NCBI GenBank assembly: GCA_964636885.1
Contig: CAZWVA010000003.1
Span: 11,678 to 75,677 of the forward strand
Direction of reading: 5' to 3'
DNA from: an uncultured Spirochaetia bacterium
GTDB lineage: Bacteria > Desulfobacterota_D > UBA1144 > Nemesobacterales > CSP1-2
DNA length: 64,000 bases
Part shown: one piece after another, positions 1,768 through 32,905 of the stretch
Layout: the number at the start of each line of letters is the position of its first letter
How positions within the stretch are numbered: the first letter of the stretch is position 1
Made by a program: the position numbers and the translations under genes
The notes under the pieces: generated by a model
Told to the model about the DNA's origin: nothing
The model's input: the letters and a program-made list of their open reading frames with translations, nothing else
The model's database searches: none

Positions 1768-2451
1768 CTATCTCCACTGCTCTTTTTCTATGTGCTTTAC
1801 CTTGATTAGAGAGGCGGCGTCTGTTCCAATCCTTAGGGATTTTCCTCTGACCTTAAGAATGAATGAGCCTCCAAAGGGTTCCTTCTTTTGTACGGTGAAT
1901 GGGGTGTCAGGGATGAGGCCGAGATCATCGAGATACTGAAGGAGTTTCGGGTCCTCGTCCGGAACCTCAGACACTATACCGCTTTCCCCTTCTTTCATTT
2001 CGGATAGACAGATCAGTTCTTCATCCCTAAGCACAAGCTCGGGGCTGGGTATAGGGGAGCCATGCGGGTCGCGGGTAGGGTGATTCAGGAGCTCTGCCAT
2101 TCTCTTCTCCACCTCCTCGGATATAACGTGTTCCCATTTCTCGGCCTCATCGTGAACCTTGTCCCAGGGGAGTCCGAGTGCCTCGTGGAGGTACTGTTCT
2201 ATGAGGCGGTGATGCCTTATTACCTCGAGTGCTATCTTCTCTCCGGCCGGCGTTAGGACGGCGCCCCTATAGGGCTCGTGCTCTACCAGTTGGAGATCGA
2301 CAAGCCTTTTAACCATCTGCGTTACCGTGGGCGGGGATACCTTCATTATCTTGGCAAGATCGTTTGTATTGGCTTTTCCCTTTTTCCTAAGGAGGTTAAA
2401 GATCGTTTTTAAGTAATCTTCCATAACGGAGGAGAGTTGTGTTCGCACCAT
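1768..2451 (-). CDS. DtxR/IdeR-family metal-dependent transcriptional repressor with a C-terminal SH3-like/FeoA domain
   Basis: The MEDYLKTIF...TNDLAKIMKVSPPTVTQMVKRL segment matches the DtxR-family HTH. The metal-binding and dimerisation core and a C-terminal FeoA-like tail are present. The likely start is the ATG at 2451 with a GAGGT RBS; the track start at 2466 is a TTG. It lies adjacent to the mntH-like transporter. Confidence 0.8.
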   Translation of the reverse strand: MVRTQLSSVMEDYLKTIFNLLRKKGKANTNDLAKIMKVSPPTVTQMVKRLVDLQLVEHEPYRGAVLTPAGEKIALEVIRHHRLIEQYLHEALGLPWDKVHDEAEKWEHVISEEVEKRMAELLNHPTRDPHGSPIPSPELVLRDEELICLSEMKEGESGIVSEVPDEDPKLLQYLDDLGLIPDTPFTVQKKEPFGGSFILKVRGKSLRIGTDAASLIKVKHIEKEQWR

Positions 2452-2528
2452 CAAATTATACCTCAACGGGGGATCAAACTGTATACCCTTTCACTGTATT
2501 ATGCTCCCTCCTAGGCGGTCATTACCTT

Positions 2529-4436
2529 TCATTTTAGGGGCACAACAAGGACACTGGCCCGAACCCTGTGTCTTACCCTCTCTACGGTCGTGCCGTGTAG
2601 GATATCGGAGACCCCCGAGTGACCGTGGCCTCCTAGAATCACGAGGTCTATATCGAGCTCATTTATCATTCGAGCAAGCTCCGTAGCCGGGTTTCCGGTT
2701 CCCAATCGCCACTCGGCGTCGATACCTATCCTGCGGAGTTCAAGTGTGAGCTCTTCCAGCCGTTCCTTATCGCTTAGTGTCTCTCGATCGGCGGCCTCTT
2801 TCCCCATAACGAGTGCGGCGGGGCTTTCAACTACATGCAGGAGAACCACCTTGGCTCCGCTATCTTGTGCTATACGCCTTGCCTCTGCCAGAAGCTTCAT
2901 CACTCCATCCGAGAAATCGAGGGCCACGGCCACACGCCTGTATGGCCGCGGTGCCGGTAGCACCGCCTTATGGGTCGGTACAGGACCGTAAACCACTGCC
3001 CGTGGCATCCTGAGTTTCTTTATCCATGGGCGGAGGGTTATGTATACGAGCAGAAACCCGACGACTATGATTAGGGGTAAAACTATCATCCGAACCATCC
3101 AGGCCTTCTCCCCTGCGCTTAGGAGCCACCCTCCGACCTCGCCTATAACCAGTTTTACGTTGAGGGAAACGATTATGGATGTTGCTATCCAGGCGACTAC
3201 ACGGAGCCAGGGTGGGATGACGAATCCCCCCATACGGCGCTCATCGGATACGAAGTGTATGAGAGGGATAATGGCAAAGGGGAGCTGTAATGAAAGAACC
3301 ACCTGGCTCAGCACCAGTAGAGAACCTGTGGAGTTTTCGCCAAAATACCAGATCCCGATTACTGCTGGGAGTACGGCAAACATTCGCGTTATCAACCTGC
3401 GGATCCAGGGGCGGATTCGGAGGTTAAGGTATCCCTCCATGACGACCTGACCGGCCAGGGTTCCAGTAATAGTAGAGCTCTGCCCTGAGGCAAGAAGGGC
3501 GACTGCAAAGGCAAAGGGTGCTATGGATGCCCCGAGAAGCGGTTCGAGTAGACGATATGCGTCCTCGATCTCCGCCACGTTATAGTGACCGCTTCTATAG
3601 AAGACCGCGGCCGCCATGATTAGAATGGCCGAGTTTACAAAGAAGGCGGCGTTAAGTGCGAGGGCGGAGTCGATCGTATTCCATCTAATCGCCTGTCTTA
3701 TCTCCTTAGGGTCGTGTCCGACCTGGCGTGTCTGAACGAGGGAGGAGTGCAGGTAGAGGTTATGAGGCATCACCGTAGCCCCAAGAATACCCATGGCGAT
3801 ATAAAGTGCATCTCTACCCGGCAGTGAGGGAACGAATCCGCGTGCAATCCCTCCCCAATCGGGCTTGGCTAGTAGGATCTCTATAAGGAGACCCGCGCCA
3901 ATAGTGGCCACCAACGATAGGATCACGGCCTCTAGCTTCCTGATGCCAAACCGAGAGAGGGATAGGAGTAGGAGTACATCCAGGGTCGTTAGCAACACCC
4001 CGTATAGGAGCGGTAGACCGAAGAGCAGCTTTAGTGCAATGGCGGAACCGAGAACCTCCGCAAGGTCACATGCTATGATGGCGATTTCGGCGAGTACATA
4101 GAGAGGGATATTTATAAGACCTGGATACTCTTCACGGTTTGCCTGTGCTAGATCGCGACGGGCAACGACGCCAAGACGGGCCGAGAGGCTCTGGAGAAGA
4201 ACCGCCATCAGGTTGGACATGAGGAGCACCCATATGAGTTTATAGTTGTATCGGCTTCCTCCAGCCAGATCGGTAGCCCAGTTGCCGGGGTCCATGTATC
4301 CCACAGAGACCATGAGGGCTGGTCCGCTAAAGGTAAGCCAATGCCGCCACCAACTCGACCCGCCACTCGGTAGGGGTACCGACTCATTAACCTCCGCTAA
4401 GGATCTCTGTTGATAATGGGAAGGATCGGGTTTCAT
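2529..4436 (-). CDS. mntH: NRAMP-family Mn2+/Fe2+:H+ symporter (MntH) fused to a C-terminal universal stress protein (UspA) domain
   Basis: The N-terminal about 440 aa are multi-TM with the NRAMP signature region GYMDPGNWATDLAGGS. The C-terminal about 150 aa (VAVALDFSDG...LVILGGHGHSG...VLVVP) is a Usp fold. Confidence 0.85.
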   Translation of the reverse strand: MKPDPSHYQQRSLAEVNESVPLPSGGSSWWRHWLTFSGPALMVSVGYMDPGNWATDLAGGSRYNYKLIWVLLMSNLMAVLLQSLSARLGVVARRDLAQANREEYPGLINIPLYVLAEIAIIACDLAEVLGSAIALKLLFGLPLLYGVLLTTLDVLLLLSLSRFGIRKLEAVILSLVATIGAGLLIEILLAKPDWGGIARGFVPSLPGRDALYIAMGILGATVMPHNLYLHSSLVQTRQVGHDPKEIRQAIRWNTIDSALALNAAFFVNSAILIMAAAVFYRSGHYNVAEIEDAYRLLEPLLGASIAPFAFAVALLASGQSSTITGTLAGQVVMEGYLNLRIRPWIRRLITRMFAVLPAVIGIWYFGENSTGSLLVLSQVVLSLQLPFAIIPLIHFVSDERRMGGFVIPPWLRVVAWIATSIIVSLNVKLVIGEVGGWLLSAGEKAWMVRMIVLPLIIVVGFLLVYITLRPWIKKLRMPRAVVYGPVPTHKAVLPAPRPYRRVAVALDFSDGVMKLLAEARRIAQDSGAKVVLLHVVESPAALVMGKEAADRETLSDKERLEELTLELRRIGIDAEWRLGTGNPATELARMINELDIDLVILGGHGHSGVSDILHGTTVERVRHRVRASVLVVPLK

Positions 4437-4766: not shown

Positions 4767-6086
4767 ATGAATATGTCAGATAGAACAATGATCCCCAGGC
4801 AGGTCAAAGAAAAAGATCGAAGTGAATTAATCAGCCGTTCTCTCCTTAAAGACTACAGGTCGGTCCGCGGGTTTAGCGAGGATCTCTGCAGACCGCTTGT
4901 AACCGAGGATTACGTCATCCAGTCCATGCCAGATGTGAGCCCGACAAAATGGCACCTAGCCCATACGAGTTGGTTTTTTGAAACGTTTGTCCTCGAACAC
5001 GTAGACCCTGGGTATAGGCCTCTGGATCCCAGGTATAAGTACCTTTTTAATTCCTACTACGTTCAGGTTGGGGCAAGGCACGCCCGTCCACAGCGCGGGC
5101 TCCTATCGAGGCCCACGGTAGAGGAGGTCTATCTATATAGGCACCGTGTGGACGAGCACATGATCGGGTTTCTTGAAAGCGCCGACGAGTCGGAGGTAGA
5201 GAGGATCGCCCCTGTTATAGAGATAGGAATCCATCATGAACAACAGCACCAGGAACTCATGGTCACGGATATAAAGCACGTTTTTTCTGTGAACCCGCTC
5301 CGTCCGGTGTATATCACAAAACATGAAAACCCAAAATCCCGTTCCATACCTGGTATCAGATGGATTGTCTTCCCAGAGGGGGTGTATCTCATAGGGCACG
5401 AGGGGGAGGGTTTTGCCTATGATAACGAGTGCCCACGCCACAGGGAATTTGTGGGGGCTTTCCTTATAGCCTCACGTCTTGTGACCAATCGCGAGTATCT
5501 GGCTTTCATGGAAGACGGGGGTTATGAGAGGCCTGAGCTCTGGCTATCGGACGGCTGGTATGCGGTTGAGGCAAACGGCTGGAAGGCTCCCCTTTACTGG
5601 GAAGGGATCGACGGGGCCTGGTGGTACTTTACCCTTTCTGGCATGCGCGAGGTAGATCTGGACGAGCCCGTATGTCACGTAAGCTACTACGAGGCGGACG
5701 CCTACGCCCGCTGGGCTGGGGCGAGGCTCCCAACAGAAGCCGAATGGGAGATCGCCGCATCTAAACCATCTATAGAGGGAAACTTCATTGAAGATGGGAG
5801 GCACCATCCCGTGCCTTTAAGCGATGAGGGGGCCAGTGGTGACCTACTTCAGATGTTTGGGGATGTGTGGGAGTGGACGAGTAGTCCCTACACCCCGTAT
5901 CCGGGTTTTAAAACGCTCCCCGGAGCGCTTGGGGAATACAACGGAAAATTCATGTCCAATCAGATGGTGCTCCGCGGAGGCTCCTGTGCGACGCCTAGAT
6001 CCCATATAAGAAGGACCTATAGAAACTTCTTCCCTCCCAGTGCCAGGTGGCAGTTTATGGGGATAAGGCTTGCGAAAGATGCATGA
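4767..6086 (+). CDS. egtB: Ergothioneine biosynthesis sulfoxide synthase EgtB (DinB_2 domain plus FGE-sulfatase-like domain)
   Basis: The N-terminal DinB-like four-helix metal-binding region (HLAHTSWFFE...HHEQQHQEL) and the C-terminal FGE-sulfatase fold (VSYYEADAYARWAG...RGGS) match the characteristic EgtB architecture. An AGGGAGGG RBS precedes the ATG. Confidence 0.8.
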   Translation: MNMSDRTMIPRQVKEKDRSELISRSLLKDYRSVRGFSEDLCRPLVTEDYVIQSMPDVSPTKWHLAHTSWFFETFVLEHVDPGYRPLDPRYKYLFNSYYVQVGARHARPQRGLLSRPTVEEVYLYRHRVDEHMIGFLESADESEVERIAPVIEIGIHHEQQHQELMVTDIKHVFSVNPLRPVYITKHENPKSRSIPGIRWIVFPEGVYLIGHEGEGFAYDNECPRHREFVGAFLIASRLVTNREYLAFMEDGGYERPELWLSDGWYAVEANGWKAPLYWEGIDGAWWYFTLSGMREVDLDEPVCHVSYYEADAYARWAGARLPTEAEWEIAASKPSIEGNFIEDGRHHPVPLSDEGASGDLLQMFGDVWEWTSSPYTPYPGFKTLPGALGEYNGKFMSNQMVLRGGSCATPRSHIRRTYRNFFPPSARWQFMGIRLAKDA

Positions 6087-7041
6087 GAACATAAAGGCGG
6101 TAAAGGGATTCGAGGCCGAGTGGGATTACCTCATTGCCGAGGTGATGGAGGGGCTTAGAAAACCCCAAAAGGAACTCCCCTGCAAGCTCTTTTACGACGA
6201 GAGGGGCTCGCTTCTATTCGATGAGATATGCGGGCTTAAGGAGTACTACCTCACGAGAACGGAGATGGCCATCATGGATAAGTATATCTCCGAGATCTCA
6301 GATACACTCGGCAGCGGGTGTCTACTTATAGAGCTTGGAAGCGGTAGCAGTAAAAAGATAAGGCTGATACTGGATCATCTGGAAGAGCCTGCAGGATATA
6401 TGCCGATTGATATCTCGTTTAAGCACCTGATGAAGTCTGTGTCCGCACTTGCAAGGGACTATCCCCGACTCAGGATAGTCCCGGTATACGCCGATTACAC
6501 TCAACCCTTTTCCCTACCCCGCTTTTACATTCCCTACTCCCGGAAGGTCGTATATTTCCCTGGCTCGACTATAGGGAATTTTACGCGAGAATACGCGGGC
6601 CTTTTTCTCGAACGGATCGCTAGATTGACTGGTGGTGGAAGCGGGCTTCTAATAGGGGTCGATCTTAAAAAGGATAAAAGGACACTTGAGGCTGCTTATA
6701 ACGATGGTAAAGGGGTTACGGCCGCGTTTAATCTAAACATGCTTGAGAGGCTAAACCGTGAACTGGGTGCGGATTTCGATCTCAGTAGGTGGAGGCATCA
6801 CGCTTTCTATAATGACGGTGTGGGAAGGATAGAGATGCACCTTGTGAGTCTCGAAGATCAATACGTGCATATAGGTGACGGTGGGGTTTTCTTCGAGAAG
6901 GGAGAGACCATACTTACCGAGTATTCCTACAAGTACACGTTGGAGGAGTTTCGGGAACTGGTTTCCGACGCATTTCGGATTGAACGCGTCTGGACGGATG
7001 AGAAGCGTAGATTCAGCGTGCAGTACCTTTCCGTTCGTTGA
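6079..7041 (+). CDS. egtD: L-histidine N-alpha-methyltransferase EgtD
   Basis: The motifs LFYDERGSLLFDEICGLKEYYLTRTE and ELGSGSSKK (SAM-binding) are EgtD hallmarks. The ATG at 6079 overlaps the egtB stop (ATGCATGA), and the track start at 6070 is a TTG. It forms a two-gene egtBD unit. Confidence 0.8.
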   Translation: MHENIKAVKGFEAEWDYLIAEVMEGLRKPQKELPCKLFYDERGSLLFDEICGLKEYYLTRTEMAIMDKYISEISDTLGSGCLLIELGSGSSKKIRLILDHLEEPAGYMPIDISFKHLMKSVSALARDYPRLRIVPVYADYTQPFSLPRFYIPYSRKVVYFPGSTIGNFTREYAGLFLERIARLTGGGSGLLIGVDLKKDKRTLEAAYNDGKGVTAAFNLNMLERLNRELGADFDLSRWRHHAFYNDGVGRIEMHLVSLEDQYVHIGDGGVFFEKGETILTEYSYKYTLEEFRELVSDAFRIERVWTDEKRRFSVQYLSVR

Positions 7042-7346
7042 CAAGGGGTAAGGACCGTTGCCCACCCGGACGATTCCATAACGCCGTATTTTTGCCTCTC
7101 GTGCAGGTTTTTTCACCAGATGGGATACTTTGCCTAGGGGTGAGGATTGGAGAGGGTGTAGAGATTCACTATGGATTTAATAAAGGGAAAATACCTTCCG
7201 GGATCGTGACGTGTCACCTAGGGTTTTCTCAGGGAATATCGAAATAGAGAAGAAAGGTTGGCTAGACGGTTAATCTATTGTCCGGTTTTAGGGGTTAGAG
7301 TGTGCTTTTCTTTATCTCTAACTTATTTTAAAATTAGAAAACATAT

Positions 7347-8702
7347 ATGTCCGATACCGATATAAGAACCAAATTAAAAAGCGAACCAGATATATTTCTT
7401 AGACTGACCGAAAACTCTATGCTGGTTGCTGCAAGTTTAAGAGACAAATTTCTAGATCAGACGCTAGATATAGCAAGTAAGATAAGAAAAAGATTGGGGA
7501 TAGGAAGTCTTAAAGGTTTTGGAATTAAGAAAGTATCTCCAGATTATAAGACCGACTCTAGTAAAATAACAGTGGCTTTTATTGACGGTGGTATTGGTGA
7601 AGCAGAAATTTTCCTAAAAGTTCCTCTAATTGTAAGAGGAGGTATTTTCAAAATAAAAGAGGGCGAGAGAGACTTAGAGAAACGCGAGATCTTTGAGTTT
7701 TTTCCAATACTAATTGGTGATTTGGAAGGAGGTGAAAAGGGAAGCGGCGACTATGCATCGGTTGTGAGAATAATTATTGAGTTATCAGCTATTTTAAAAG
7801 TTCTTGATGATCCCAAATATTCAGACGTGAACTTAATAATGCTTCATGGACCTATTCTTTACAGACTATCAGCTTATTCAAGGCATTGGTTTTTTGAAAA
7901 CGATATACTTACTATGACTCAAGGCTCAAAATATTTAATCAACGACTTTAGAGAAAACATCAAAGAATGTCAGTTAGAAGAATGCGTATGTAGTTCTTGG
8001 AAGAGTGAGCAAAAGTTAGTTGCAAACTGCTTTATCGCATTTTTGTTGAATCAGATTATAGATAAATGTCTTAAAAAGTATATAGATTTTGTAGGAGTTG
8101 TAGAGAGACCTGACGCAACAGAGATAGGAACAATTCTTTTTGAGCATCTTCTTAAGGAAGAACCTGATTTAGCTAAAAACTATTTGGGTAGAACAGTAAA
8201 GAATTATAAAAATGATGCAAAAGAAATAATTAGGATCGGAAATTATAATGATCCATTGTTGTTCTCGATAATTTTAAGTCCTGGCGAATACTTAGATTTT
8301 TATGAAGCAGAAGAACGATATAGTGGGTTTGTTGGGAAATTTCAAGGGTTTGACCGTAAATTACCGAAAATATCCTATACCTATTTAAAGCCGGTAGAGA
8401 ATGCAATGGCAATAAGAGTTGAATTTCCGCAAAAACTCACTGATTCAAGAAAAGAAGCGGGTTTATATAAAACTTATGAATACTCTAGGTTGCTACCTAA
8501 CTATGCATTCCCGATAGGGCTTGACGTAGCTGATAAGTTTGCAAAAGTTCCTAAATGGATGGTTGAAGCTTATCGTAAATATATTCTTTTTAATTTTGGC
8601 AGATTAACTTTAGATAAGGAATTAGAAGAGCATGAATTACGTAAAATTTTAATGTTCTTCTATTTGCATAGAAGAGATTTTCAATCTAGACCTAAGATTT
8701 AG
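7347..8702 (+). CDS. nurA: NurA-family 5'-3' nuclease (RNase H-like fold)
   Basis: The N-terminal motif KITVAFIDGGIGEAE matches the NurA signature FVAIDGGSFG. The C-terminal YAFPIGLDVADKFAKV matches the NurA YPFPLLKAHMDVRF motif. It lies immediately upstream of HerA with a 2-nt gap. Confidence 0.7.
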   Translation: MSDTDIRTKLKSEPDIFLRLTENSMLVAASLRDKFLDQTLDIASKIRKRLGIGSLKGFGIKKVSPDYKTDSSKITVAFIDGGIGEAEIFLKVPLIVRGGIFKIKEGERDLEKREIFEFFPILIGDLEGGEKGSGDYASVVRIIIELSAILKVLDDPKYSDVNLIMLHGPILYRLSAYSRHWFFENDILTMTQGSKYLINDFRENIKECQLEECVCSSWKSEQKLVANCFIAFLLNQIIDKCLKKYIDFVGVVERPDATEIGTILFEHLLKEEPDLAKNYLGRTVKNYKNDAKEIIRIGNYNDPLLFSIILSPGEYLDFYEAEERYSGFVGKFQGFDRKLPKISYTYLKPVENAMAIRVEFPQKLTDSRKEAGLYKTYEYSRLLPNYAFPIGLDVADKFAKVPKWMVEAYRKYILFNFGRLTLDKELEEHELRKILMFFYLHRRDFQSRPKI

Positions 8703-8704
8703 GA

Positions 8705-10444
8705 GTGGAAAGTATGGGGAATAGTAAAAATATAATTGGTACTGTGGTGGGTGTTACAAATCCTAGGGAATTTTATTTTTCTATAGCTCCTGGAAAGGCT
8801 CAACTTCAGGAAATTGTTGCTGTTGATGCCTATGAATTAGATGAATCTGGAGAGAAAAAAGATAAGACAGTAAGAGTTTGGGCTAAGGTCGTCGAAATAG
8901 AGCGAATAAATCCGCTTTTTCCACAAGAAGTTGCTCAGGAACTCTCTTTTCAGCAAATGAGTGCTTTTGACACTGTTATTCCTCTTTCAAGAGAGATGAT
9001 AACAGCAAAGTGTGCTGTCCTCGGGTTAGAAAATAAAAAGGGAGAACTTCAACCTTTAACATACCCTCTTCAACCTGCATCTAGTGTATATATTCCGTCT
9101 AAAAAGGACGTAGAAAAATTAGTTATAGGAGACATCCCTGATTATAGAAAACTTCATATAGGGCATCTGCGCTCTAAGCCGGAGTTTAAGGTTTTCATAG
9201 ATGGACATGCCATAGTAGCAAGGCACTTAGCTGTTCTTGCCGCAACAGGGGCTGGTAAGACAGTTACAGTTAGACGAATTATTGAGGAACTATCGAGTCG
9301 AAAATACCCTATTCTAATATTTGATCCGCATGGAGATTATATTGGGTTAAAAGAATTACCAGAACTTAAAGGAAGTGTAGAGGTTTATCTTCCAGTATTT
9401 CGTGTATTGGAGGAGTCCTTTGACAACCTCATCCTTTTATTATCTGGCCTTTCTAGTGAAGATATAACTCCACCTCAAGAAACATTAATAGGTGGTTTAT
9501 TAGACTTATTTAATACCAAAGAAGGAAGAGAATTTATAGATAATTACATAAGACCTATAAGTGAATCTAGGAGAACTGAATATAGACTGAATATAGAGTC
9601 TCATCATTTTTATGCGATGAACGAAGTATTGGATATATTAGAAAGGCTTCAAACTGAGGAAAGTTGGGAAGAAGTGAGGAATGAATTAAATACTATTTCT
9701 AGAAGACTTGTAAGAGGAATGTCTACATCCATTAGACCTGTAAGCCGTATATTATCTAGGGCTGCTCTATCTTATTCGCAGATTAAAAAAATTAATAGAT
9801 TTAAGCGAGACTTCGGAGTAGAGCTACCTAGTCCTCAAGATATAAGTTCACTAATATCTCCTGGAAAGATAAGCATAATAAACCTAGAGGGATATAGTAA
9901 CCTAAGTAGCGTTGTGGCTAGCAATATACTAAGGCAACTTCTTAATTTAAGAGTCGAAGAAAAAGTACACCGTTTTTTAACTGTTATTGAGGAAGCACAT
10001 AATTTTATTCCTAGTTCGATTGAGAGTGCAGTGCAAAGTAGCGCTATATCAGTGATAAGACAGATTGCAACTGAAGGACGGAAATACGGTATGGGACTTA
10101 TTTTGATAAGCCAACGTCCATCTAGAGTGGATTCAACAATTGTTTCGCAATGCAATTCTTTTATAGTCTTAAAGATTATCAATCCTGGTGATCAGAAGTA
10201 TGTTAGGGATGTTGTTGAATCAATTGGTGAAGAAGATGCTAAGATTCTTCCAGATTTAGCTACCGGAGAAGCATTAATAACAGGGGAATGCGTTAGGTTT
10301 CCTATGTTGGCTAGAATCGAGAGACCTAGATCGGTTGGTAGGCACGAAGAAGAAGATTTTATAAAAGAAATACTTGATAAGGAAAGTAACGTTGTTTCTC
10401 AAAAATCTAAGACTAAGGAGTTGCCCCTTTTGAAAAAGCAATGA
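8705..10444 (+). CDS. herA: HerA-family (DUF87, FtsK/HerA superfamily) hexameric DNA translocase/helicase ATPase
   Basis: An N-terminal HAS-barrel-like region is followed by a Walker A (LAATGAGKTVTV), a Walker B (LTVIEEAHNF) and the QRPS segment typical of HerA. It is paired with NurA. Confidence 0.8.
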   Translation: MESMGNSKNIIGTVVGVTNPREFYFSIAPGKAQLQEIVAVDAYELDESGEKKDKTVRVWAKVVEIERINPLFPQEVAQELSFQQMSAFDTVIPLSREMITAKCAVLGLENKKGELQPLTYPLQPASSVYIPSKKDVEKLVIGDIPDYRKLHIGHLRSKPEFKVFIDGHAIVARHLAVLAATGAGKTVTVRRIIEELSSRKYPILIFDPHGDYIGLKELPELKGSVEVYLPVFRVLEESFDNLILLLSGLSSEDITPPQETLIGGLLDLFNTKEGREFIDNYIRPISESRRTEYRLNIESHHFYAMNEVLDILERLQTEESWEEVRNELNTISRRLVRGMSTSIRPVSRILSRAALSYSQIKKINRFKRDFGVELPSPQDISSLISPGKISIINLEGYSNLSSVVASNILRQLLNLRVEEKVHRFLTVIEEAHNFIPSSIESAVQSSAISVIRQIATEGRKYGMGLILISQRPSRVDSTIVSQCNSFIVLKIINPGDQKYVRDVVESIGEEDAKILPDLATGEALITGECVRFPMLARIERPRSVGRHEEEDFIKEILDKESNVVSQKSKTKELPLLKKQ

Positions 10445-11721
10445 AATATTTCATTCCCGACTGGGAAGACCGTTTAGACCCAAATTATGATTTTCAAACA
10501 GACACGTTTGGAAGAGAAAGGAATGAAGCCTATAAAACTGATATTTACGCACATCAAATTTTTTCTAAGCCCCCGTATGATGGGATATTAATCAGCCTAG
10601 CCCTTTTTAATAGTAGAAGTAAAATTACTTTAAAAGAGAGTAAGAATGGAGATAAAAATATAAGGGAACTGAGAACGATCAAAGATTATCTAAAAATTCC
10701 CGCTTCGAGCAATCTAGAGGTGATGGGAGATTGTGGGGCATTTAGCTATATTAATGAAGATACCCCTCCTGCTGAGTATGATACAAAATTGGTTGCTGAT
10801 GTTTACCATAATCTGGGTTTTGATTATGGTGTTTCAGTGGATCACATGATTCCTGATTTTATCTTGAAGGAAGATAGGAAAGGAAGAAAAAAGAAAATAA
10901 AGCTTACCAAGCAGCAAAAGGAAAAACGTAGACAACTAACCCTAGACAATGCTGAAGAGTTTTTGCGATATCATAGAGAGAGAAATTATGATTTTATTCC
11001 TATTGGTGTGGCGCAAGGATCGGATCCAATATTCTATGCTGATTCTGTGTACAATCTATTGGAGATGGGATACAGATACATAGGGTTAGGAAGTTTAGTC
11101 CCTAAGAGAGACGATGAAATCGTAGACATACTCAAAGCTGTAAAAAGAGTTATAGACCGGCATTCTAAAGAAGAGAATATAAGAATCCATCTTTTTGGAG
11201 TATTGCGGATTAAAAAGCTAGTCGAGTTTAGGTCATTAGGGGTAACCAGTTTTGATAGTGCTTCCTACCTCAGGAAAGCATGGCTACGCTCGGACCAAAA
11301 CTACCTTGCTCCAGATAAAAATTGGTTTTCAGCAATTAGGATTCCTTACTCTAATAATCCACGCCTTGTCAAAAATGCAAAGGAAGACGGTATCTCGGAA
11401 AGAGAACTAAAACAAAGAGAAGAGGAATGTTTAAAGTTGATAAGAGAATACGCTCAAAAACCAAAAAATTCAAACCTAGAAAGAGTATTAGACGCCATAA
11501 TGAACTATGATTCCTTGCTTCTTCGAGGCTTTGAGGGTAACCATCATCGGGAGAAGTATATGGCTACACTCTTGGCTAGACCCTGGGAGAAATGTAATTG
11601 CGAGGTCTGCAAATCTCTTGGTGTAGATGTTGTGATATTTCGTGGTGCGAATCGAAATAAAAGAAGAGGATTCCACAATACTAAAATCTTTTATGACCTC
11701 TACCTTAACTCAGAAGAATAA
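10441..11721 (+). CDS. tRNA-guanine-transglycosylase-fold protein, DpdA-like (predicted nucleobase-exchange enzyme, possibly acting on DNA)
   Basis: TGT catalytic-site equivalents are present: MGDCGAFSY (cf. TDSGGFQ), GVAQGS (cf. GIVQGG), YIGLGSL (cf. YAIGGL) and SFDSASYLR (cf. MFDCVLPTR, the nucleophile Asp). A C-terminal CxCxxC...H zinc site (CNCEVC...H) is present and there is no PUA domain. The ATGA overlaps the herA stop. Confidence 0.7.
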   Translation: MKYFIPDWEDRLDPNYDFQTDTFGRERNEAYKTDIYAHQIFSKPPYDGILISLALFNSRSKITLKESKNGDKNIRELRTIKDYLKIPASSNLEVMGDCGAFSYINEDTPPAEYDTKLVADVYHNLGFDYGVSVDHMIPDFILKEDRKGRKKKIKLTKQQKEKRRQLTLDNAEEFLRYHRERNYDFIPIGVAQGSDPIFYADSVYNLLEMGYRYIGLGSLVPKRDDEIVDILKAVKRVIDRHSKEENIRIHLFGVLRIKKLVEFRSLGVTSFDSASYLRKAWLRSDQNYLAPDKNWFSAIRIPYSNNPRLVKNAKEDGISERELKQREEECLKLIREYAQKPKNSNLERVLDAIMNYDSLLLRGFEGNHHREKYMATLLARPWEKCNCEVCKSLGVDVVIFRGANRNKRRGFHNTKIFYDLYLNSEE

Positions 11722-12169
11722 GATTCTAATCATTGTTCCCTGCGGAAAAAAGAAAATCTGGGATAAAATCCCAAATAAAGGTAGAGTTTATGCCAAAGAC
11801 GCATATATAAGCCCTTACTTTAAACTCTGTCGGAAGTATGCAGAAAAATTCGCTGATAAGTGGGTGATCCTTTCGGCAAAGTATGGGTTTATTGAACCAG
11901 ATTTTACTATTCCAAAAAATTATGACGTTTCATTTAACAACTCTAAAAATGAGGTTGTATCTTTTCAAAGACTCAAAGTTCAGGTAAAGAAGTTAAGATT
12001 TCAAGATTATCAATCGGTTATTATTTTAGGTGGAAAAGAATATATCGATATAGTTCAAAGGGTATTGAAAGGTTCCAGGAGACGAATAAAAGTCCCGCTT
12101 GAGGGTCTAGGAATTGGAAAAAGACAAGCCAAGATTAAAGAGGCACTGACCAAAAGGATTTCTTTCTGA
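11693..12169 (+). CDS. Small Rossmann-like hypothetical protein (158 aa) with an N-terminal ILIIVPCGKKK motif
   Basis: The ATG at 11693 is in frame with ORF 11642..12169 and overlaps the end of the TGT-like gene by about 29 nt. A β-strand-Gly/Lys loop pattern occurs twice (IVPCGKKK; VIILGGKEY). No family is recognised by eye. Confidence 0.45.
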   Translation: MTSTLTQKNKILIIVPCGKKKIWDKIPNKGRVYAKDAYISPYFKLCRKYAEKFADKWVILSAKYGFIEPDFTIPKNYDVSFNNSKNEVVSFQRLKVQVKKLRFQDYQSVIILGGKEYIDIVQRVLKGSRRRIKVPLEGLGIGKRQAKIKEALTKRISF

Positions 12170-12273
12170 CGGAGTATAGAAGTGGGATGGGAAATCCTAT
12201 ACGAGCTTCTAAGAGAAGGATTAAGATGATATCATACTGTCAACGGAGGTTGGAAGGTCGACAGGTTTATGGT

Positions 12274-13197
12274 TCACGACCCTCGTTTACCCTTTCCGAG
12301 TAGGTGTCTTAAAGCCCCTATGAGCTCAGGATACAGAAACCCATAATCGGTATCCAGCAGCTTCTTTGGAATAGCCCGGCAACTCGCAAGGAGCATTTCC
12401 TCGGCCATCTCTCCTATAAGAAGGCGAAGGACAAACCCGGGGATCGAAAGGAAAGACGGACGCCCAAGTACTCGTGAAAGCGTCCTTGTAAACTCACGGT
12501 TTGTAACCGGATTGGGCGATACCGCGTTTACGGGTCCATTGAGATCTTTTTTATTGATGGCATGATAAATAGCACCTACTACATCGTCAATAGAGATCCA
12601 GCTAATATACTGGTTTCCGCTTCCAATAGTCGCTCCTAATCCCAAGCGGAAGGGGGTAAGCATGGCCTTTAAGACCCCGCCTTTTGGACTTAGGACGAGG
12701 CCGATCCTAAGGTTGACGACACGGATCCCTTTCTCTATAGCGGGTTTACACGCCCCCTCCCACTCACGGCATACATCCGCTAGGAATCCCCTACCGGACC
12801 CGCTTTCCTCTGTTAGTATCTCGTCTCCACGATCGCCGTAATAACCTGTTGCCGATGCGCACACAAACACATCTGGTGGCTCCTTGAGTGTGGCTAGGGA
12901 TCTTGAGAGGAGCCACGTCCCATCGACTCGGCTCTTACGGATCCTCCTCTTTTTCTCTTCAGTCCATATTCCGGCCACGTTTTCCCCTGCGAGGTGCACA
13001 ACGGCGTTATGCCCCTCGAAAACCGAAGGGTCGATCTCTTTGGCATCGGGATTCCAGTAAGAAACCGACTCTCCGATCTTAGCCTCGGAGAAAGACCTCG
13101 AGCGGGTAAGACGAGTGACACTATGGCCGTTTGTGGTAAGAAATGGAACCAGAGCCGACCCTATGAGTCCTGTGGATCCGGTAACCAGGATTTTCAT
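12274..13197 (-). CDS. NAD-dependent epimerase/dehydratase-family protein (YfcH-like, DUF1731 C-terminus)
   Basis: N-terminal Rossmann motif ILVTGSTGLIGSAL and overall YfcH/TIGR01777-like architecture. Confidence 0.75.
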   Translation of the reverse strand: MKILVTGSTGLIGSALVPFLTTNGHSVTRLTRSRSFSEAKIGESVSYWNPDAKEIDPSVFEGHNAVVHLAGENVAGIWTEEKKRRIRKSRVDGTWLLSRSLATLKEPPDVFVCASATGYYGDRGDEILTEESGSGRGFLADVCREWEGACKPAIEKGIRVVNLRIGLVLSPKGGVLKAMLTPFRLGLGATIGSGNQYISWISIDDVVGAIYHAINKKDLNGPVNAVSPNPVTNREFTRTLSRVLGRPSFLSIPGFVLRLLIGEMAEEMLLASCRAIPKKLLDTDYGFLYPELIGALRHLLGKGKRGS

Positions 13198-17840: not shown

Positions 17841-19139
17841 ATGAGATACGATGTTCTTACCATTTTCCCACAGTTTTTTGAATCGCCTTTCTCCTTTGGA
17901 ATCCTCAAGAAGGCACAGGAAAGGGGATTAATAGAGATAAACACACACGATATAAGGGCCTTTGCAGAGGATAAACACAGAACCGTGGACGACAAACCCT
18001 ATGGTGGTGGGAGCGGAATGGTGATGAAACCAGGGCCACTTGGAAGAGCAATAGAATCTGTAAGAATCGAGGGGGCAAGATCCCTCGTTATACTCACCAC
18101 TCCTCAGGGAGAGGTTTTTTCGGATGGTATCGCAAGGGAGTTTTCCGAGTACGAACAACTCGTCATAATCTGCGGAAGGTACGAGGGCATAGACGAGAGG
18201 ATTAGAGAGATCTATGTGGATAGGGAGATCTCGATAGGGGATTACGTGCTCTCTGGCGGCGAATACGCCGCTTCTGTAATCATAGATGCGGTATCTAGGT
18301 TTATCCCCGGTGTACTCGGAAACGAGGAGTCCCCATACGACGATTCCTTTAAAGAGGGCCTCCTTGAGTATCCTCAATACACAAGACCAGAGGTCTACAG
18401 GGGAAAAGGGGTTCCTGAGGTCATACTCTCCGGAAATCACAGGGAGGTAGAGAGGTGGAGGAGAAGGGAGAGTATTAGAAGGACATTTTTACGAAGACCC
18501 GATTTGCTTGACAAGACGGTTCTTACGGCCGATGACCTAGGATTCATAGACGAGTTAAAAAAACAAAACCCCCCTTCTTTTAGGGCTTATGTTGCATTGG
18601 TTCATTATCCGGTTTACAATAAAAAATTTAAAGTCGTTACAACTGCCTTTGTAAACCTCGATGTTCATGACCTGGCAAGGGCGGCTAGAACTTACGGGAT
18701 AAAGGGGTTCTTTCTAGTGCAGCCGGTTATGGAGCAACAGGCGTTGGTAAAAAGGGTGCTTTGGCACTGGACGGAGGGGCCGGGTGCCTCTTTTAACCCG
18801 ACAAGGGCAGATGCGCTTAGGCTCGTTCGTATAAAGAACTCCCTCGACGAGGTTGTTAAAGAGATTGAAAGAGCGGAGGGGGTAAGACCCAAGGTGGTCG
18901 TAACCGATGCTAGACCCAGGGAGAATATGATAGGCTACTCGGAGCTTAGAGAAAGGGTATCGTCTGGAAAGGAACCCTACCTGATACTCTTTGGTACGGG
19001 GTGGGGGATAACCAGAGAGGTTATGGAGTGTGCCGATTATGTACTAAAGCCCATTCGAGGATTTACCGATTATAACCATCTTTCCGTAAGGAGTGCGGCG
19101 TCTATAATTCTAGATAGGTTGTTTTCGAGTAAAATATGA
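17841..19139 (+). CDS. trmD: tRNA (guanine37-N1)-methyltransferase TrmD fused to a C-terminal SpoU/TrmH-like SPOUT methyltransferase domain
   Basis: The N-terminal about 245 aa are canonical TrmD (MRYDVLTIFPQFF...GGGSGMVM...ICGRYEGIDER...). The C-terminal about 185 aa carry SpoU motifs (NLDVHDLARAARTYG...; GTGWGI...; NHLSVRSAASIILDRL). Confidence 0.85.
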   Translation: MRYDVLTIFPQFFESPFSFGILKKAQERGLIEINTHDIRAFAEDKHRTVDDKPYGGGSGMVMKPGPLGRAIESVRIEGARSLVILTTPQGEVFSDGIAREFSEYEQLVIICGRYEGIDERIREIYVDREISIGDYVLSGGEYAASVIIDAVSRFIPGVLGNEESPYDDSFKEGLLEYPQYTRPEVYRGKGVPEVILSGNHREVERWRRRESIRRTFLRRPDLLDKTVLTADDLGFIDELKKQNPPSFRAYVALVHYPVYNKKFKVVTTAFVNLDVHDLARAARTYGIKGFFLVQPVMEQQALVKRVLWHWTEGPGASFNPTRADALRLVRIKNSLDEVVKEIERAEGVRPKVVVTDARPRENMIGYSELRERVSSGKEPYLILFGTGWGITREVMECADYVLKPIRGFTDYNHLSVRSAASIILDRLFSSKI

Positions 19140-31304: not shown

Positions 31305-32093
31305 TTAGCCCCTGGTTTTTATTCCACCAATTGATGCCAGGAAGCGGAGCATCCTCTTCAACTTTATGACGGAGCGTAAGCGGTAAAATCCTTCAACTAG
31401 TGATACAGATAGCCGTTTGGAATAAGACATGGGTGGTATGACAAATGCCTCGCCGAGTTTAGGGGAAAATCTCACCGGGATTTCAGCTTGAATGGTTTCT
31501 TTATATGCCTGTTTAATTTCATCTGCTAATCGAGGAAAGCCAAGCCTTTCAGCGAGTTCCACTATTACGGGGTTGTTTGTTAAGTACCGCCGTCGCCCGA
31601 TGTCATCGTAGTAAAGGACATCGAGATCCAGTAGGTGTTCCAGGTGGTCTGCTAAACGTATTAGAACCGTATTACGGTCAATCGGGTTTAGTTTATTAAT
31701 TCCGTCACAGATGGCCTTGATCGTCTGCGGGTTCCATCTGAGTGTCGCGAATCTGGCGACGTGCTCTTCGACTGTCTTACCAACAGAGTGCTCTACGTAT
31801 CTACGCTTGGCTTTAGAGATTCCTCTACCCCCAAACCCAAAGTCACCATTTTGGTAAACGTTATGGATAAGACCTGCCGCCACCACTTGGGCTGGTAGTC
31901 CTAGTGAGGCGAGTATGCTGGCAGTGCCTACGCAATGGGATAAGAAGTCCTTTCCAGAAGGTTGAAAGCGACAGGAAAAGAGTGACATCGCAAGCTCATA
32001 TGTATTTCGGATAAGGATCATTTCGGTATTTGAGTAGCCGCTTTGCTGGAGCTGGCTGTAAAGCCGTACGATCGTTTGTGCGTAAGGGTGCAT
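31305..32093 (-). CDS. Hypothetical protein, tandem paralog A (possible degenerate HD-like fold)
   Basis: About 40% identical to the adjacent ORF 32135..32905. Both share the MHPYAQT...L..QL...GYS and SH.VGTASILASL...AGL(I/L)H..Y..GDFG motifs. No family is recognised. Confidence 0.45.
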   Translation of the reverse strand: MHPYAQTIVRLYSQLQQSGYSNTEMILIRNTYELAMSLFSCRFQPSGKDFLSHCVGTASILASLGLPAQVVAAGLIHNVYQNGDFGFGGRGISKAKRRYVEHSVGKTVEEHVARFATLRWNPQTIKAICDGINKLNPIDRNTVLIRLADHLEHLLDLDVLYYDDIGRRRYLTNNPVIVELAERLGFPRLADEIKQAYKETIQAEIPVRFSPKLGEAFVIPPMSYSKRLSVSLVEGFYRLRSVIKLKRMLRFLASIGGIKTRG

Positions 32094-32134
32094 ATTTCAC
32101 CTTCCTAATTAGTAGCCGGATGGTTGTAAGGCGT

Positions 32135-32905
32135 TTATCTCATCTTATAAAATGACTTGCGTAATCGGCTAAGCCCCTTAAGAAATATGCCGTTTAGGTA
32201 CATAGGCAGCCTTTTTTGATATGACTTTGGTGGAATCAGGTGTGCACGATCGGGTCGGTTTATACTACGGAGTTCCTCGGTAATCTCGGCTGAAGCGGTC
32301 TCTCCTAGTACCCGTGTCAGTTCGGAGGCCAGAATGGGGAAGCCCAATTTTTCTGCCATATCCACCATGATGGGGCCACAACGTTCCAGATAGGGTTTCC
32401 GCCTCTCGGCGTTTGAGCAGTAGAGGGCACCTAGGTTCAGGTTGTCCTCTAACTCATTTGCGAGGCGTATTAAAAGGACATCCCGGTCAATCGGAGAGAG
32501 CCTATCTAGTCTATCCCGAATGGCGGGGATCTCCTTTAAGCTCCATTTGAGCCCTGTGTACCTGGCGATGTATTCTTCCACCTCTTCACCAGCGGTGTCT
32601 CTTATCACTTTCCGTTTTATGTTGGAGAGGGGGCTTATGGTTATGATGCCAAAATCGCCATGAATATAGGCGGCATGGAGTAGGCCAGCAGTTACCAGAT
32701 TTATCGGTACGCGAAGGGAGGCTAGTATGCTGGCTGTTCCTACCAGGTGAGATACGAACGTATTGCCGGAGGGACGGTAGAGTCCTGTAAAGAGGCGTAT
32801 CGCAAGGCTATAGGCATTAAAGACCAAGCCGATTTCCTCTTTTGAGTAGCCCTCACGGAGGAGCTGGTTATAGAGCTGGATGTTTGTCTGGGCGTAAGGA
32901 TACAA
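32135..32905 (-). CDS. Hypothetical protein, tandem paralog B
   Basis: Paralog of 31305..32093 with the same conserved motifs. Confidence 0.45.
   Translation of the reverse strand: MYPYAQTNIQLYNQLLREGYSKEEIGLVFNAYSLAIRLFTGLYRPSGNTFVSHLVGTASILASLRVPINLVTAGLLHAAYIHGDFGIITISPLSNIKRKVIRDTAGEEVEEYIARYTGLKWSLKEIPAIRDRLDRLSPIDRDVLLIRLANELEDNLNLGALYCSNAERRKPYLERCGPIMVDMAEKLGFPILASELTRVLGETASAEITEELRSINRPDRAHLIPPKSYQKRLPMYLNGIFLKGLSRLRKSFYKMR

What the first reader, a model, noticed from the sequence alone, without database searches (positions are those of the whole stretch)
10441..11721. Stand-alone TGT-fold enzyme with all catalytic and zinc residues but no tRNA-binding PUA domain, start-coupled to HerA
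The motifs MGDCGAFSY, GVAQGS, YIGLGSL and SFDSASYLR align with the TGT catalytic Asp/Asp/Asp positions, and CNCEVC...H is the TGT CxCxxC...H zinc knuckle. It lacks the C-terminal tRNA-recognition extensions of bacterial and archaeal tRNA TGTs, and its ATGA overlaps the herA stop. That coupling implies stoichiometric co-expression with a DNA translocase, which favours a DNA-directed base-exchange or base-excision role over tRNA modification.
Basis: partly seen in the sequence, partly recalled or inferred. Interest (0 to 1): 0.8.

Follow-up and report, generated by a model that had tools for sequence, protein, structure and literature searches.

The report
DpdA DNA-base swapper with HerA–NurA
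The gene is a recognisable DpdA, the known enzyme that swaps guanine in DNA for a 7-deazaguanine base, but here it lacks its usual helper DpdB and sits in a small imported four-gene cassette with a DNA-pumping motor and a nuclease, which looks like an undescribed compact version of a known DNA-marking defence system.

Summary
ORF 10441-11721 (426 aa) is a TGT-fold protein with three catalytic Asp, a CxCxxC...H zinc site, no PUA domain, and an ATGA overlap with the herA stop.

It is not an orphan. It scores 422 bits against NCBIfam DpdA (cutoff 200), matches the Salmonella DpdA crystal structure 7UI4 over its full length (E 5e-74), and its model superposes on 7UI4 at TM 0.82, against about 0.42 for tRNA TGTs.

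The context appears undescribed in the papers I could search. A 5-kb AT-rich island (36% vs 48% GC) carries NurA, HerA, DpdA and a short DUF6884 protein resembling the N-terminal domain of DpdC. DpdB, DpdD-K and que genes are absent.

In 80 genomes, DpdA splits into two clades:
- DpdB-linked: 41 of 41 loci have DpdB.
- DpdB-less: 0 of 39 have DpdB. 34 of 39 carry HerA (NurA found beside it in most) and/or UvrD plus a PD-(D/E)XK nuclease, and nearly all carry DUF6884.

Best reading (about 0.5): a compact Dpd-like restriction-modification cassette, built like TdpC/TdpAB. The mechanism is inferred, not shown.

The parts
7120..12200 (.). AT-rich island carrying the four-gene cassette, inserted between egtD (6070-7041) and a DUF1731 epimerase gene (12274-13197, minus strand)
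   Evidence: GC is 0.36 in the island and 0.484 in the rest of the window. Each of the four genes is 0.34-0.37, against 0.49-0.53 for egtB, egtD and the epimerase. The limits are approximate. No flanking direct repeats, tRNA or integrase were found.
7347..8702 (+). NurA-family nuclease (451 aa), RNase-H-like fold; D80, E114, E253 and D302 are among the invariant columns
   Evidence: Pfam NurA scores 20.4 bits, just under the cutoff of 21. 37 of 41 family members hit PF09376. A 57%-identical homologue is named NurA by NCBI. The AF2 model has pLDDT 86.3. Foldseek top hits are S. solfataricus NurA 2YGK (E 2e-9), NurA of the T. kodakarensis HerA-NurA complex (9X1N_G), P. furiosus NurA 3TAZ and chain G of TdpAB (8WFD). 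Invariant residues come from A3.
8705..10444 (+). HerA-family hexameric dsDNA translocase ATPase (579 aa from GTG 8705; JGI calls ATG 8714, 576 aa)
   Evidence: Pfam DUF87 1e-29 and HerA_C 1e-10. PADLOC HerA 2e-57. PDB hits: 9X1L 1.6e-39, 4D2I HerA 1e-31, TdpA 8WET 2e-7. It falls below the cutoffs of every NCBIfam HerA equivalog. It starts 3-12 nt after the NurA stop.
10441..11721 (+). DpdA, DNA-guanine transglycosylase (7-deazaguanine/preQ0 insertase), DpdB-less clade
   Evidence: The ATG overlaps the herA stop (ATGA).
10729..11256 (+). Active-site codons of DpdA: D97 (10729-10731), D134 (10840-10842), Q192 (11014-11016), D272 (11254-11256)
   Evidence: Invariant in A1 and in all 79 DpdA domains compared. 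Their motifs pair with the matching motifs of 7UI4; roles are taken from PMC10164549.
11593..11676 (+). Zinc site codons C385, C387, C390 ... H412
   Evidence: Invariant in A1 and in all 79 DpdA domains.
11693..12169 (+). Short DUF6884 protein (158 aa) resembling the N-terminal domain of DpdC; has the CxxxK (CGKKK) and LSAxxG (LSAKYG) motifs; overlaps the DpdA 3' end by 29 nt
   Evidence: Pfam PF21818 8.8e-24. PADLOC PDC-M57A 2e-20 and weak DpdC 3e-4. Profile-profile comparison with DpdC: 96.4%, E 1e-9, over DpdC residues 4-172 of 314. Fused to the DpdA C-terminus in other organisms. The start follows the JGI gene call.

Best explanation
The four genes NurA, HerA, DpdA and DUF6884 form one horizontally acquired operon that works as a compact, DpdB-independent version of the Dpd 7-deazaguanine restriction-modification system.

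DpdA exchanges guanine in double-stranded DNA for preQ0, which the host's own queuosine pathway would supply. It uses D272 as nucleophile, D97 as general acid/base, and D134 and Q192 to read the base.

The short DUF6884 protein, a minimal relative of the DpdC N-terminal domain, then acts on the inserted base, most likely hydrating the nitrile to the amide (dADG).

HerA (a hexameric ATP-driven dsDNA pump) and NurA (a nuclease) form the effector arm. They thread and destroy DNA that lacks the mark, as TdpAB does for DNA lacking phosphorothioate.

What is shown: the identity, fold and intact active sites of the proteins; operon packing; foreign base composition; and the conserved, modular gene association. 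What is inferred: the substrate (preQ0), the reaction of DUF6884, and the idea that the mark controls HerA-NurA.
For: (1) DpdA identity and intact catalytic and zinc residues.

(2) Operon structure. The gaps are 3-12 nt, -4 nt and -29 nt. The island is 36% GC against 48%.

(3) Two DpdA clades in 80 genomes. 41 of 41 loci in one clade have DpdB, and 0 of 39 in the other do. The window belongs to the DpdB-less clade.

(4) Partners in the DpdB-less clade. 8 loci carry HerA (NurA detected in 6 of them), 3 of these also with UvrD plus PD-(D/E)XK. 26 carry UvrD plus PD-(D/E)XK only. The remaining five: L010 has a BrxC/D-like ATPase, L025 a DpdJ-like helicase, L039 and L040 have neither, and L041 is a 3.7-kb contig. 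A constant modification core with swappable motor-nuclease modules is the usual signature of restriction-modification and defence systems.

(5) Closest metagenomic relatives. 8 of 9 with upstream DNA have HerA abutting DpdA. L093 (84% identical) has the same four-gene order.

(6) DUF6884. It is present in nearly all DpdB-less loci and fused to DpdA in at least 7 proteins. It is homologous to the DpdC N-terminal domain and shares its motifs.

(7) Link to preQ0. L084 has queD-queC-queE-folE2 divergent from NurA-HerA-UvrD-PDDEXK-DUF6884-DpdA. L023 and L098 have QueD, and L038 has QueC.

(8) Precedents. T. kodakarensis HerA-NurA degrades both strands of dsDNA, and its authors suggest a defence role (PMC12977600). 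TdpAB chains are among the sequence and fold hits. The tdp cluster pairs a single modification gene with tdpAB (PMC12914056).

(9) PADLOC lists DUF6884 as a defence candidate, PDC-M57A. The clade is almost absent from viral contigs, with 2 loci in 2.9 million.
Against: - No activity was measured for any of the four proteins.
- No que or folE genes lie in the 64-kb window. Only 4 of about 50 DpdB-less loci have one nearby, against 41 of 41 DpdB-linked loci. The base inserted could therefore differ from preQ0.
- Salmonella DpdA needs the DpdB ATPase (PMC10164549). HerA or UvrD might serve modification rather than restriction.
- Canonical HerA-NurA also belongs to DNA-repair operons. L004 has Mre11/Rad50-like genes right after DpdA, and L085 has endonuclease V just upstream.
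- NurA-HerA pairs of this family also occur without DpdA (L087, L088).
- The short DUF6884 protein lacks the C-terminal half of DpdC.
- No mobility genes or insertion scars mark the island.
Confidence: 0.5

Rival explanations
1. The motor substitutes for DpdB. HerA (and UvrD in sister loci) supplies the ATP-driven DNA opening or tracking that DpdA needs for base exchange, so the cassette is mainly a modification machine. NurA would be accessory, or restriction would be done elsewhere. This can coexist with the main explanation if the motor is dual-use.
For: Salmonella DpdA is inactive without DpdB and ATP (PMC10164549). DpdB is absent from all 39 DpdB-less loci, and 34 of them have a motor. 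The HerA stop overlaps the DpdA start in several lineages and across two HerA subtypes, which suggests co-production.
Against: The motor nearly always comes with its cognate nuclease (NurA or PD-(D/E)XK), which modification alone does not require. Some loci carry two motor-nuclease pairs (L022, L024, L030, L084, L086). Five DpdB-containing loci also carry UvrD plus PD-(D/E)XK. From my own recollection of Hutinet et al. 2019 (PMC6884629), not checked in the text retrieved here, phage DpdA modifies DNA when expressed in E. coli without DpdB.
Confidence: 0.2
2. DNA-repair module. DpdA replaces damaged guanines by base exchange or acts as a glycosylase, DUF6884 binds the lesion or abasic site, and NurA-HerA resects.
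For: HerA-NurA is classically described as an end-resection machine (papers listed). The DUF6884 member YfjM was found among proteins binding abasic and RNA-base lesions (PMC11701544). L004 has Mre11/Rad50-like genes next to DpdA, and L085 has endonuclease V upstream. Many carriers are thermophiles.
Against: The island has foreign composition and sits between unrelated housekeeping genes. Distribution is patchy across archaea and many bacterial phyla, and the motor modules are swapped repeatedly. L084 links the system to preQ0 synthesis and a DNA methyltransferase. PADLOC lists DUF6884 as a defence candidate.
Confidence: 0.1
3. Modification-dependent (type IV-like) defence. DpdA and/or DUF6884 recognise 7-deazaguanine in phage DNA and hand it to HerA-NurA, rather than marking self DNA.
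For: Phages commonly carry 7-deazaguanines, and hosts have evolved glycosylases against them (10.1101/2025.10.29.685425). There is no dedicated preQ0 supply in most DpdB-less loci.
Against: All catalytic transglycosylase residues are invariant. As I recall from the TGT literature (not checked here), TGT-type enzymes do not remove 7-deazaguanines once inserted. L084, L023, L038 and L098 link the system to que genes.
Confidence: 0.08
4. An ordinary tRNA-guanine transglycosylase that happens to lie next to herA.
For: Pfam assigns only the generic TGT domain (28.1 bits).
Against: It scores far below the cutoffs of the tRNA TGT and arcTGT models and far above the DpdA cutoff. The structural match is TM 0.82 to DpdA against about 0.42 to tRNA TGTs. 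There is no PUA domain. The linkage to DNA enzymes is conserved.
Confidence: 0.02

Closest known systems
Dpd system of Salmonella Montevideo and Comamonas testosteroni (DpdA-DpdB-DpdC modification, DpdD-K restriction)
   Same: The DpdA orthologue matches over its full length and aligns with 7UI4 at 33% identity in the structural alignment, with the same catalytic Asp motifs and zinc site. A DUF6884 domain like that of DpdC is present. The system is island-borne. Some relatives sit next to que genes.
   Different: There is no DpdB (0 of 39 loci in this clade, against 41 of 41 in the other). There is no full-length DpdC, only the N-terminal-like domain of 158 aa. DpdD-K are absent. No que genes are nearby. 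HerA-NurA (or UvrD plus PD-(D/E)XK) takes the place of the restriction genes. The whole cassette is 4 genes and 5 kb, against about 20 kb.
Tdp phosphorothioate system (TdpC modification plus TdpAB translocase-nuclease; PDB 8WET/8WFD)
   Same: The architecture is the same: one DNA-modifying enzyme coupled to a HerA-like hexameric motor and a NurA-like nuclease. TdpA and a TdpAB chain appear among the sequence and fold hits. It is found in thermophiles, as are many carriers of this cassette.
   Different: The chemistry differs: backbone sulfur against base exchange. The window's HerA and NurA are closer to canonical archaeal HerA and NurA than to TdpA and TdpB (E 1e-39 against 2e-7; TM 0.47/0.63 against 0.35/0.42). 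That phosphorothioate DNA controls TdpAB is my recollection of An et al. 2025, which I could not read here.
Archaeal and bacterial HerA-NurA DNA-end processing complex
   Same: Same two families in the same gene order and adjacency. The best HerA structural relative is from the set of PDB entries that includes the T. kodakarensis HerA-NurA complex, which destroys both DNA strands (PMC12977600).
   Different: It is not linked to mre11/rad50 in the window. It falls below the NCBIfam HerA equivalog cutoffs (166 against 970 bits). It is embedded in a foreign island with DNA-modification genes.
UvrD-Cas4-like helicase-nuclease modules attached to DNA-modification systems (type III R-M, Dcm-Vsr; PMC5704561)
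   Same: Sister loci of this DpdA clade use exactly such a UvrD plus PD-(D/E)XK pair, fused in L030. The logic is the same: an ancillary helicase-nuclease next to a modification enzyme.
   Different: The window itself has HerA-NurA, not UvrD-Cas4. In the text passages I retrieved, that paper does not mention a TGT or DpdA partner.
BREX-related capture (BRC) systems with HerA/FtsK, GNAT and TGT (PMC12839542)
   Same: A HerA/FtsK-type translocase co-occurs with a TGT homologue, without DpdB or DpdC, in a predicted defence system.
   Different: BRC has seven components (PglZ, DUF6079, STAND NTPase, DUF4007, HerA/FtsK, GNAT, TGT). None of the BREX-like parts is present here, whereas NurA and DUF6884 are.
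Phage DpdA1-4
   Same: They are DNA transglycosylases; per my recollection of the phage literature they act without DpdB.
   Different: This clade is cellular: only 2 of 2.9 million viral contigs carry it. By the NCBIfam DpdA model score it groups with bacterial DpdA.

Membership tests
DpdA (DNA-guanine transglycosylase, NCBIfam NF041059) | Score above the curated equivalog cutoff, over the full length | tested here: met
   422 bits against a cutoff of 200, residues 1-419 on profile positions 1-401 of 406. PADLOC DpdA 4e-118.
DpdA (DNA-guanine transglycosylase, NCBIfam NF041059) | Catalytic Asp nucleophile, Asp general acid/base, base-reading Asp, and the CxCxxC...H zinc site | tested here: met
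   D272, D97, D134, C385/C387/C390/H412 are invariant. Their motifs pair with the matching motifs of 7UI4; roles per PMC10164549.
DpdA (DNA-guanine transglycosylase, NCBIfam NF041059) | Fold closer to DpdA than to tRNA TGTs | tested here: met
   Foldseek: 7UI4 TM 0.82/0.84, E 1e-32. The best tRNA TGT has TM 0.44.
DpdA (DNA-guanine transglycosylase, NCBIfam NF041059) | Inserts preQ0 into DNA | not testable with these tools
   Needs a guanine or preQ0 exchange assay, or LC-MS of DNA.
Canonical Dpd restriction-modification system | DpdB (ParB/DndB-like ATPase) next to DpdA | tested here: not met
   A DpdB HMM built from classical loci finds nothing in the 64-kb window or in any of the 39 loci of this clade, and finds 41 of 41 in the other clade.
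Canonical Dpd restriction-modification system | Full-length DpdC (about 310 aa) | tested here: not met
   Only a 158-aa DUF6884 protein is present. It aligns to DpdC residues 4-172 of 314. PADLOC DpdC is only 3e-4.
Canonical Dpd restriction-modification system | DpdD-K restriction genes | tested here: not met
   PADLOC gives no DpdD-K hit for the island genes. The flanking genes are housekeeping.
Canonical Dpd restriction-modification system | Adjacent preQ0 synthesis genes (frequent, not obligatory) | tested here: not met
   None in the window. Present in all 41 DpdB-linked loci.
tRNA-guanine transglycosylase (bacterial TGT / arcTGT) | Score above the TIGR00449 / TIGR00432 cutoffs; PUA domain for arcTGT | tested here: not met
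   21.6 against 47.6 bits and 20.9 against 350 bits. No PUA domain.
NurA nuclease (PF09376) | Pfam gathering score | tested here: inconclusive
   The window protein scores 20.4 bits against a cutoff of 21, but 37 of 41 family members match.
NurA nuclease (PF09376) | NurA fold | tested here: met
   Foldseek top hits are NurA structures 2YGK, 9X1N_G and 3TAZ (E 2e-9 to 3e-6).
HerA-NurA double-strand-break repair operon | Linkage to mre11/rad50 and the NCBIfam HerA equivalog score | tested here: not met
   No Mre11/Rad50 in the island. NF040819 scores 166 against 970 bits.
Tdp system | TdpC phosphorothioation enzyme together with TdpAB | not tested
   No TdpC model was available. The island holds only four genes, none of which resembles a sulfur-transfer enzyme by Pfam. 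Used as an analogy only.

The most novel reading that the evidence does not exclude
A widespread DpdB-independent lineage of DpdA in archaea and in bacteria of many phyla. Together with a minimal DpdC-like DUF6884 protein and an interchangeable motor-nuclease pair (HerA-NurA, UvrD plus PD-(D/E)XK, or others), it would form a four-gene 7-deazaguanine restriction-modification system. In it the same motor might both drive base exchange and destroy unmarked DNA. This predicts 7-deazaguanine in the chromosomes of archaea such as Methanocaldococcus and Methanothermococcus.
Probability: 0.35. Interest if true: 0.7.

Novelty: new variant of a known kind. Interest (0 to 1): 0.5.

Why it matters
DpdA itself is known. 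What matters is the context.

- If the DpdB-less clade is active, it would show how a DNA transglycosylase works without the ParB-like ATPase that Salmonella DpdA needs.
- It would extend 7-deazaguanine DNA marking to archaeal chromosomes and many thermophilic bacteria.
- It would give a 5-kb, four-gene system that is far easier to reconstitute than the 20-kb Dpd island.
- It would add a second case, after Tdp, of a HerA-NurA-type DNA shredder governed by a DNA modification. That bears on the open question of whether HerA-NurA is a repair machine or a defence machine.

Tried and rejected
- Sequence and profile searches of the PDB with the NurA-like protein found nothing. A structure model and fold search were needed.
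- The PDB sequence search with DUF6884 found nothing.
- The promoter and terminator scan of the island found no more than shuffled sequence gives.
- There are no flanking direct or inverted repeats, tRNA or integrase to explain the insertion.
- Ten full-text searches found no paper linking DpdA with NurA-HerA, with UvrD/Cas4-like pairs, or with stand-alone DUF6884. The single 'HerA' hit in the DpdA structure paper is the author name Herath.
- The founding Dpd papers (Thiaville 2016, Yuan 2018) are not held, so an earlier mention of such contexts cannot be excluded.
- The organism could not be named. The exact-match look-ups give only metagenome records.
- I considered and rejected the idea that Q192, where Salmonella has His (GVAHG), marks the DpdB-less clade. 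All 79 DpdA domains from both clades have Gln.


Full report
**1. What is there**

Window 7347-12169 holds four same-strand ORFs packed end to end.
- A 451-aa protein at 7347-8702.
- HerA at 8705-10444. JGI calls the start at 8714.
- The 426-aa TGT-like ORF at 10441-11721. Its ATG overlaps the herA TGA (ATGA).
- A 158-aa ORF at 11693-12169 that overlaps the previous gene by 29 nt.

The block is 36% GC against 48% for the rest of the window. It sits between ergothioneine genes (egtB, egtD) and a DUF1731 epimerase gene, then a chloride-channel gene and the ffh-rpsP-rimM-trmD-rplS cluster. No repeats, tRNA or integrase flank it.

**2. The TGT-like protein is DpdA**

Sequence evidence:
- NCBIfam DpdA (NF041059) scores 422 bits against a cutoff of 200, over the full length.
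- The tRNA TGT and arcTGT models score about 21 bits, far under their cutoffs.
- PADLOC DpdA gives 4e-118.
- phmmer against the PDB finds one real hit, 7UI4, the S. Montevideo DNA-guanine transglycosylase. The match is E 5e-74 and covers residues 1-419.

Structural evidence: an AlphaFold2 model (pLDDT 87.8) matches 7UI4 with TM 0.82/0.84. The best tRNA TGT or arcTGT reaches 0.40-0.44.

Conserved residues: D97, D134, D272, Q192, C385, C387, C390 and H412 are invariant in 31 homologues and in 79 DpdA domains. The alignment to 7UI4 pairs the three Asp motifs with MGDCGAF, VSLDH and SIDSTT of the Salmonella enzyme. I take these to be the Asp95, Asp130 and Asp256 to which PMC10164549 assigns catalytic roles.

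NCBI already names proteins 48-61% identical to this one 'tRNA-guanine transglycosylase DpdA'.

**3. The neighbours**

HerA is clear: Pfam DUF87 1e-29, PADLOC HerA 2e-57, and PDB HerA chains at 1e-31 to 1e-39. The best match, 9X1L, belongs to the set of entries that includes the T. kodakarensis HerA-NurA complex.

The upstream protein is a NurA:
- Its own Pfam score is 20.4 against a cutoff of 21.
- 37 of 41 family members match PF09376.
- NCBI names a 57%-identical homologue NurA.
- Its model (pLDDT 86.3) hits the NurA structures 2YGK, 9X1N_G and 3TAZ, and chain G of TdpAB.

The downstream protein is DUF6884 (PF21818, 8.8e-24) and matches the PADLOC defence candidate PDC-M57A. According to a preprint (10.1101/2025.02.24.639861), DpdC carries DUF6884. 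A profile-profile comparison of 30 short DUF6884 proteins with 36 DpdC sequences gives 96.4% probability and E 1e-9. It covers the N-terminal 170 residues of DpdC. The CxxxK and (L/V)SAxxG motifs that Pfam describes (PMC11701544) are shared.

**4. What is missing**

- A DpdB HMM finds nothing in the window.
- There is no full-length DpdC and no DpdD-K.
- There are no que or folE genes anywhere in the 64 kb.

Salmonella DpdA is inactive without the DpdB ATPase (PMC10164549), so the absence of DpdB is the main departure from the known system.

**5. Comparative survey**

A scan of one genome per species returned 80 DpdA loci. I searched their six-frame ORFs with iterated HMMs, and a neighbour-joining tree was built from the DpdA domains. 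Two clades appear.

Clade B (L043-L083, 33-37% identical to the window protein):
- DpdB is present in 41 of 41 loci, usually as DpdC-DpdB-DpdA-DpdB.
- que or folE genes lie next door in 41 of 41.

The DpdB-less clade (L004-L042, 41-59% identical; archaea, Chloroflexota, Bacillota, Bacteroidota, Aquificota, Nitrospirota, Poribacteria and others):
- DpdB is present in 0 of 39 loci.
- 8 loci have HerA. NurA was detected beside it in 6, and 3 of the 8 also have UvrD plus a PD-(D/E)XK nuclease.
- 26 loci have only UvrD plus PD-(D/E)XK.
- Of the other five, L010 has a BrxC/D-like ATPase, L025 a DpdJ-like helicase, L039 and L040 are DpdC-DpdA fusions, and L041 is a 3.7-kb contig.
- DUF6884 is present in nearly all loci, and is fused to the DpdA C-terminus in several.
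- HerA contexts occur at four or more separate places in the clade.

Closest metagenomic relatives: 8 of 9 with upstream DNA have HerA abutting DpdA. L093 (84% identical) repeats the window's order exactly. The stop-start overlap recurs in five further loci.

Contexts of NurA homologues:
- L084 has queD-queC-queE-folE2 divergent from NurA-HerA-UvrD-PDDEXK-DUF6884-DpdA.
- L086 has both motor-nuclease pairs next to DpdA.
- More distant NurA-HerA pairs stand alone in defence-like neighbourhoods.

Only 2 of 2.9 million viral contigs carry this clade.

**6. Interpretation**

The core is constant: DpdA plus a DpdC-like domain. It joins interchangeable motor-nuclease modules, is spread patchily across two domains of life, and here lies in a compositionally foreign island. 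That is the pattern of a restriction-modification or defence system.

The nearest architectural precedent is Tdp, which pairs one modification enzyme (TdpC) with TdpAB (PMC12914056). TdpA and a TdpAB chain appear among the sequence and fold hits for the window's HerA and NurA. T. kodakarensis HerA-NurA degrades both DNA strands, and its authors favour a defence role (PMC12977600).

My model is as follows. DpdA marks self DNA with a 7-deazaguanine made from host preQ0. DUF6884 processes the mark. HerA-NurA destroys unmarked DNA.

Rival readings:
- HerA may instead, or also, be the ATPase that replaces DpdB.
- A repair role cannot be excluded. L004 has Mre11/Rad50-like genes next to DpdA, L085 has endonuclease V upstream, and the DUF6884 member YfjM was found among proteins binding DNA lesions (PMC11701544).
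- A modification-dependent defence role is also possible.

**7. Novelty and limits**

DpdA is known and routinely annotated. The NurA-HerA-DpdA-DUF6884 cassette, and the wider DpdB-less clade with helicase-nuclease partners, did not appear in any of ten full-text searches. The closest report is a seven-gene BREX-related system with HerA/FtsK, GNAT and TGT (PMC12839542), which shares none of the other parts.

Limits:
- The founding Dpd papers could not be read. A review states only that DpdB occurs in 92% of dpdA genomes (PMC5699537).
- The tree is neighbour-joining with a midpoint root.
- Gene calls in the loci are ORF-based.
- No biochemical claim here rests on anything but homology and context.

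Noticed in passing
L084:4957-16472: A metagenome locus where a complete preQ0 pathway (queD, queC, queE, folE2-type GTP cyclohydrolase) lies divergent from NurA-HerA-UvrD-PDDEXK-DUF6884-DpdA, followed by an N6/N4 DNA methyltransferase. It carries two motor-nuclease pairs in one operon.
   Followed up: partly
L004:8672-11828: In a Thermodesulfovibrio MAG, DpdA is followed directly by a calcineurin-like phosphoesterase and an SMC_N/AAA_27 ATPase (Mre11/Rad50- or SbcCD-like). This gives a NurA-like, HerA, DpdA, Mre11, Rad50 order that recalls the archaeal repair operon. The HerA and the 627-aa NurA-like protein there belong to a different subtype from the window's.
   Followed up: partly
L010:1994-6009 and L100:2807-7973: A third partner module for DpdA and DUF6884: a BrxC/BrxD-like (KAP-type) ATPase flanked by two proteins of about 350 and 550 aa with no Pfam match. 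L100 also has a weak NucS-like nuclease.
   Followed up: partly
L039:9065-11206 and L040 (Chloroflexia, Ktedonobacteraceae): DpdC/DUF6884-DpdA fusion proteins of about 710 aa, each with a second, divergent TGT-like paralogue about 4 kb away on the opposite strand. No motor or nuclease was detected.
   Followed up: no
L045, L049, L064, L071, L078: Five classical DpdC-DpdB-DpdA-DpdB loci also carry the UvrD plus PD-(D/E)XK pair. In four it lies immediately upstream of DpdC; in L064 it lies several kb downstream on the opposite strand. So this helicase-nuclease module also travels with DpdB-containing systems.
   Followed up: no
L028:10001-11239: The DpdA of an uncultured Sphingobacterium is split over three reading frames, and its PD-(D/E)XK gene is also fragmented. 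This is an apparently decaying copy of the system.
   Followed up: no
window 17841-19139 (+): trmD encodes a 432-aa protein that combines the tRNA m1G methyltransferase domain with a second RNA methyltransferase-like domain (PF09936), according to the precomputed Pfam hits.
   Followed up: no
window 31305-32905 (-): Two tandem paralogues of an HD_4/DUF6817 protein (262 and 256 aa), next to a large polysaccharide-synthesis cluster at about 33-42 kb.
   Followed up: no
window 1768-4436 (-): An Nramp transporter fused to a universal stress protein domain, next to a DtxR/MntR-type regulator with a FeoA domain. This is a probable manganese-uptake unit just upstream of egtB and egtD.
   Followed up: no
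window 8291-8309 and 10393-10411: A 19-nt inverted repeat (84% complementary) with one arm inside nurA and the other at the 3' end of herA, about 30 nt before the DpdA start. It is probably chance in AT-rich sequence.
   Followed up: no
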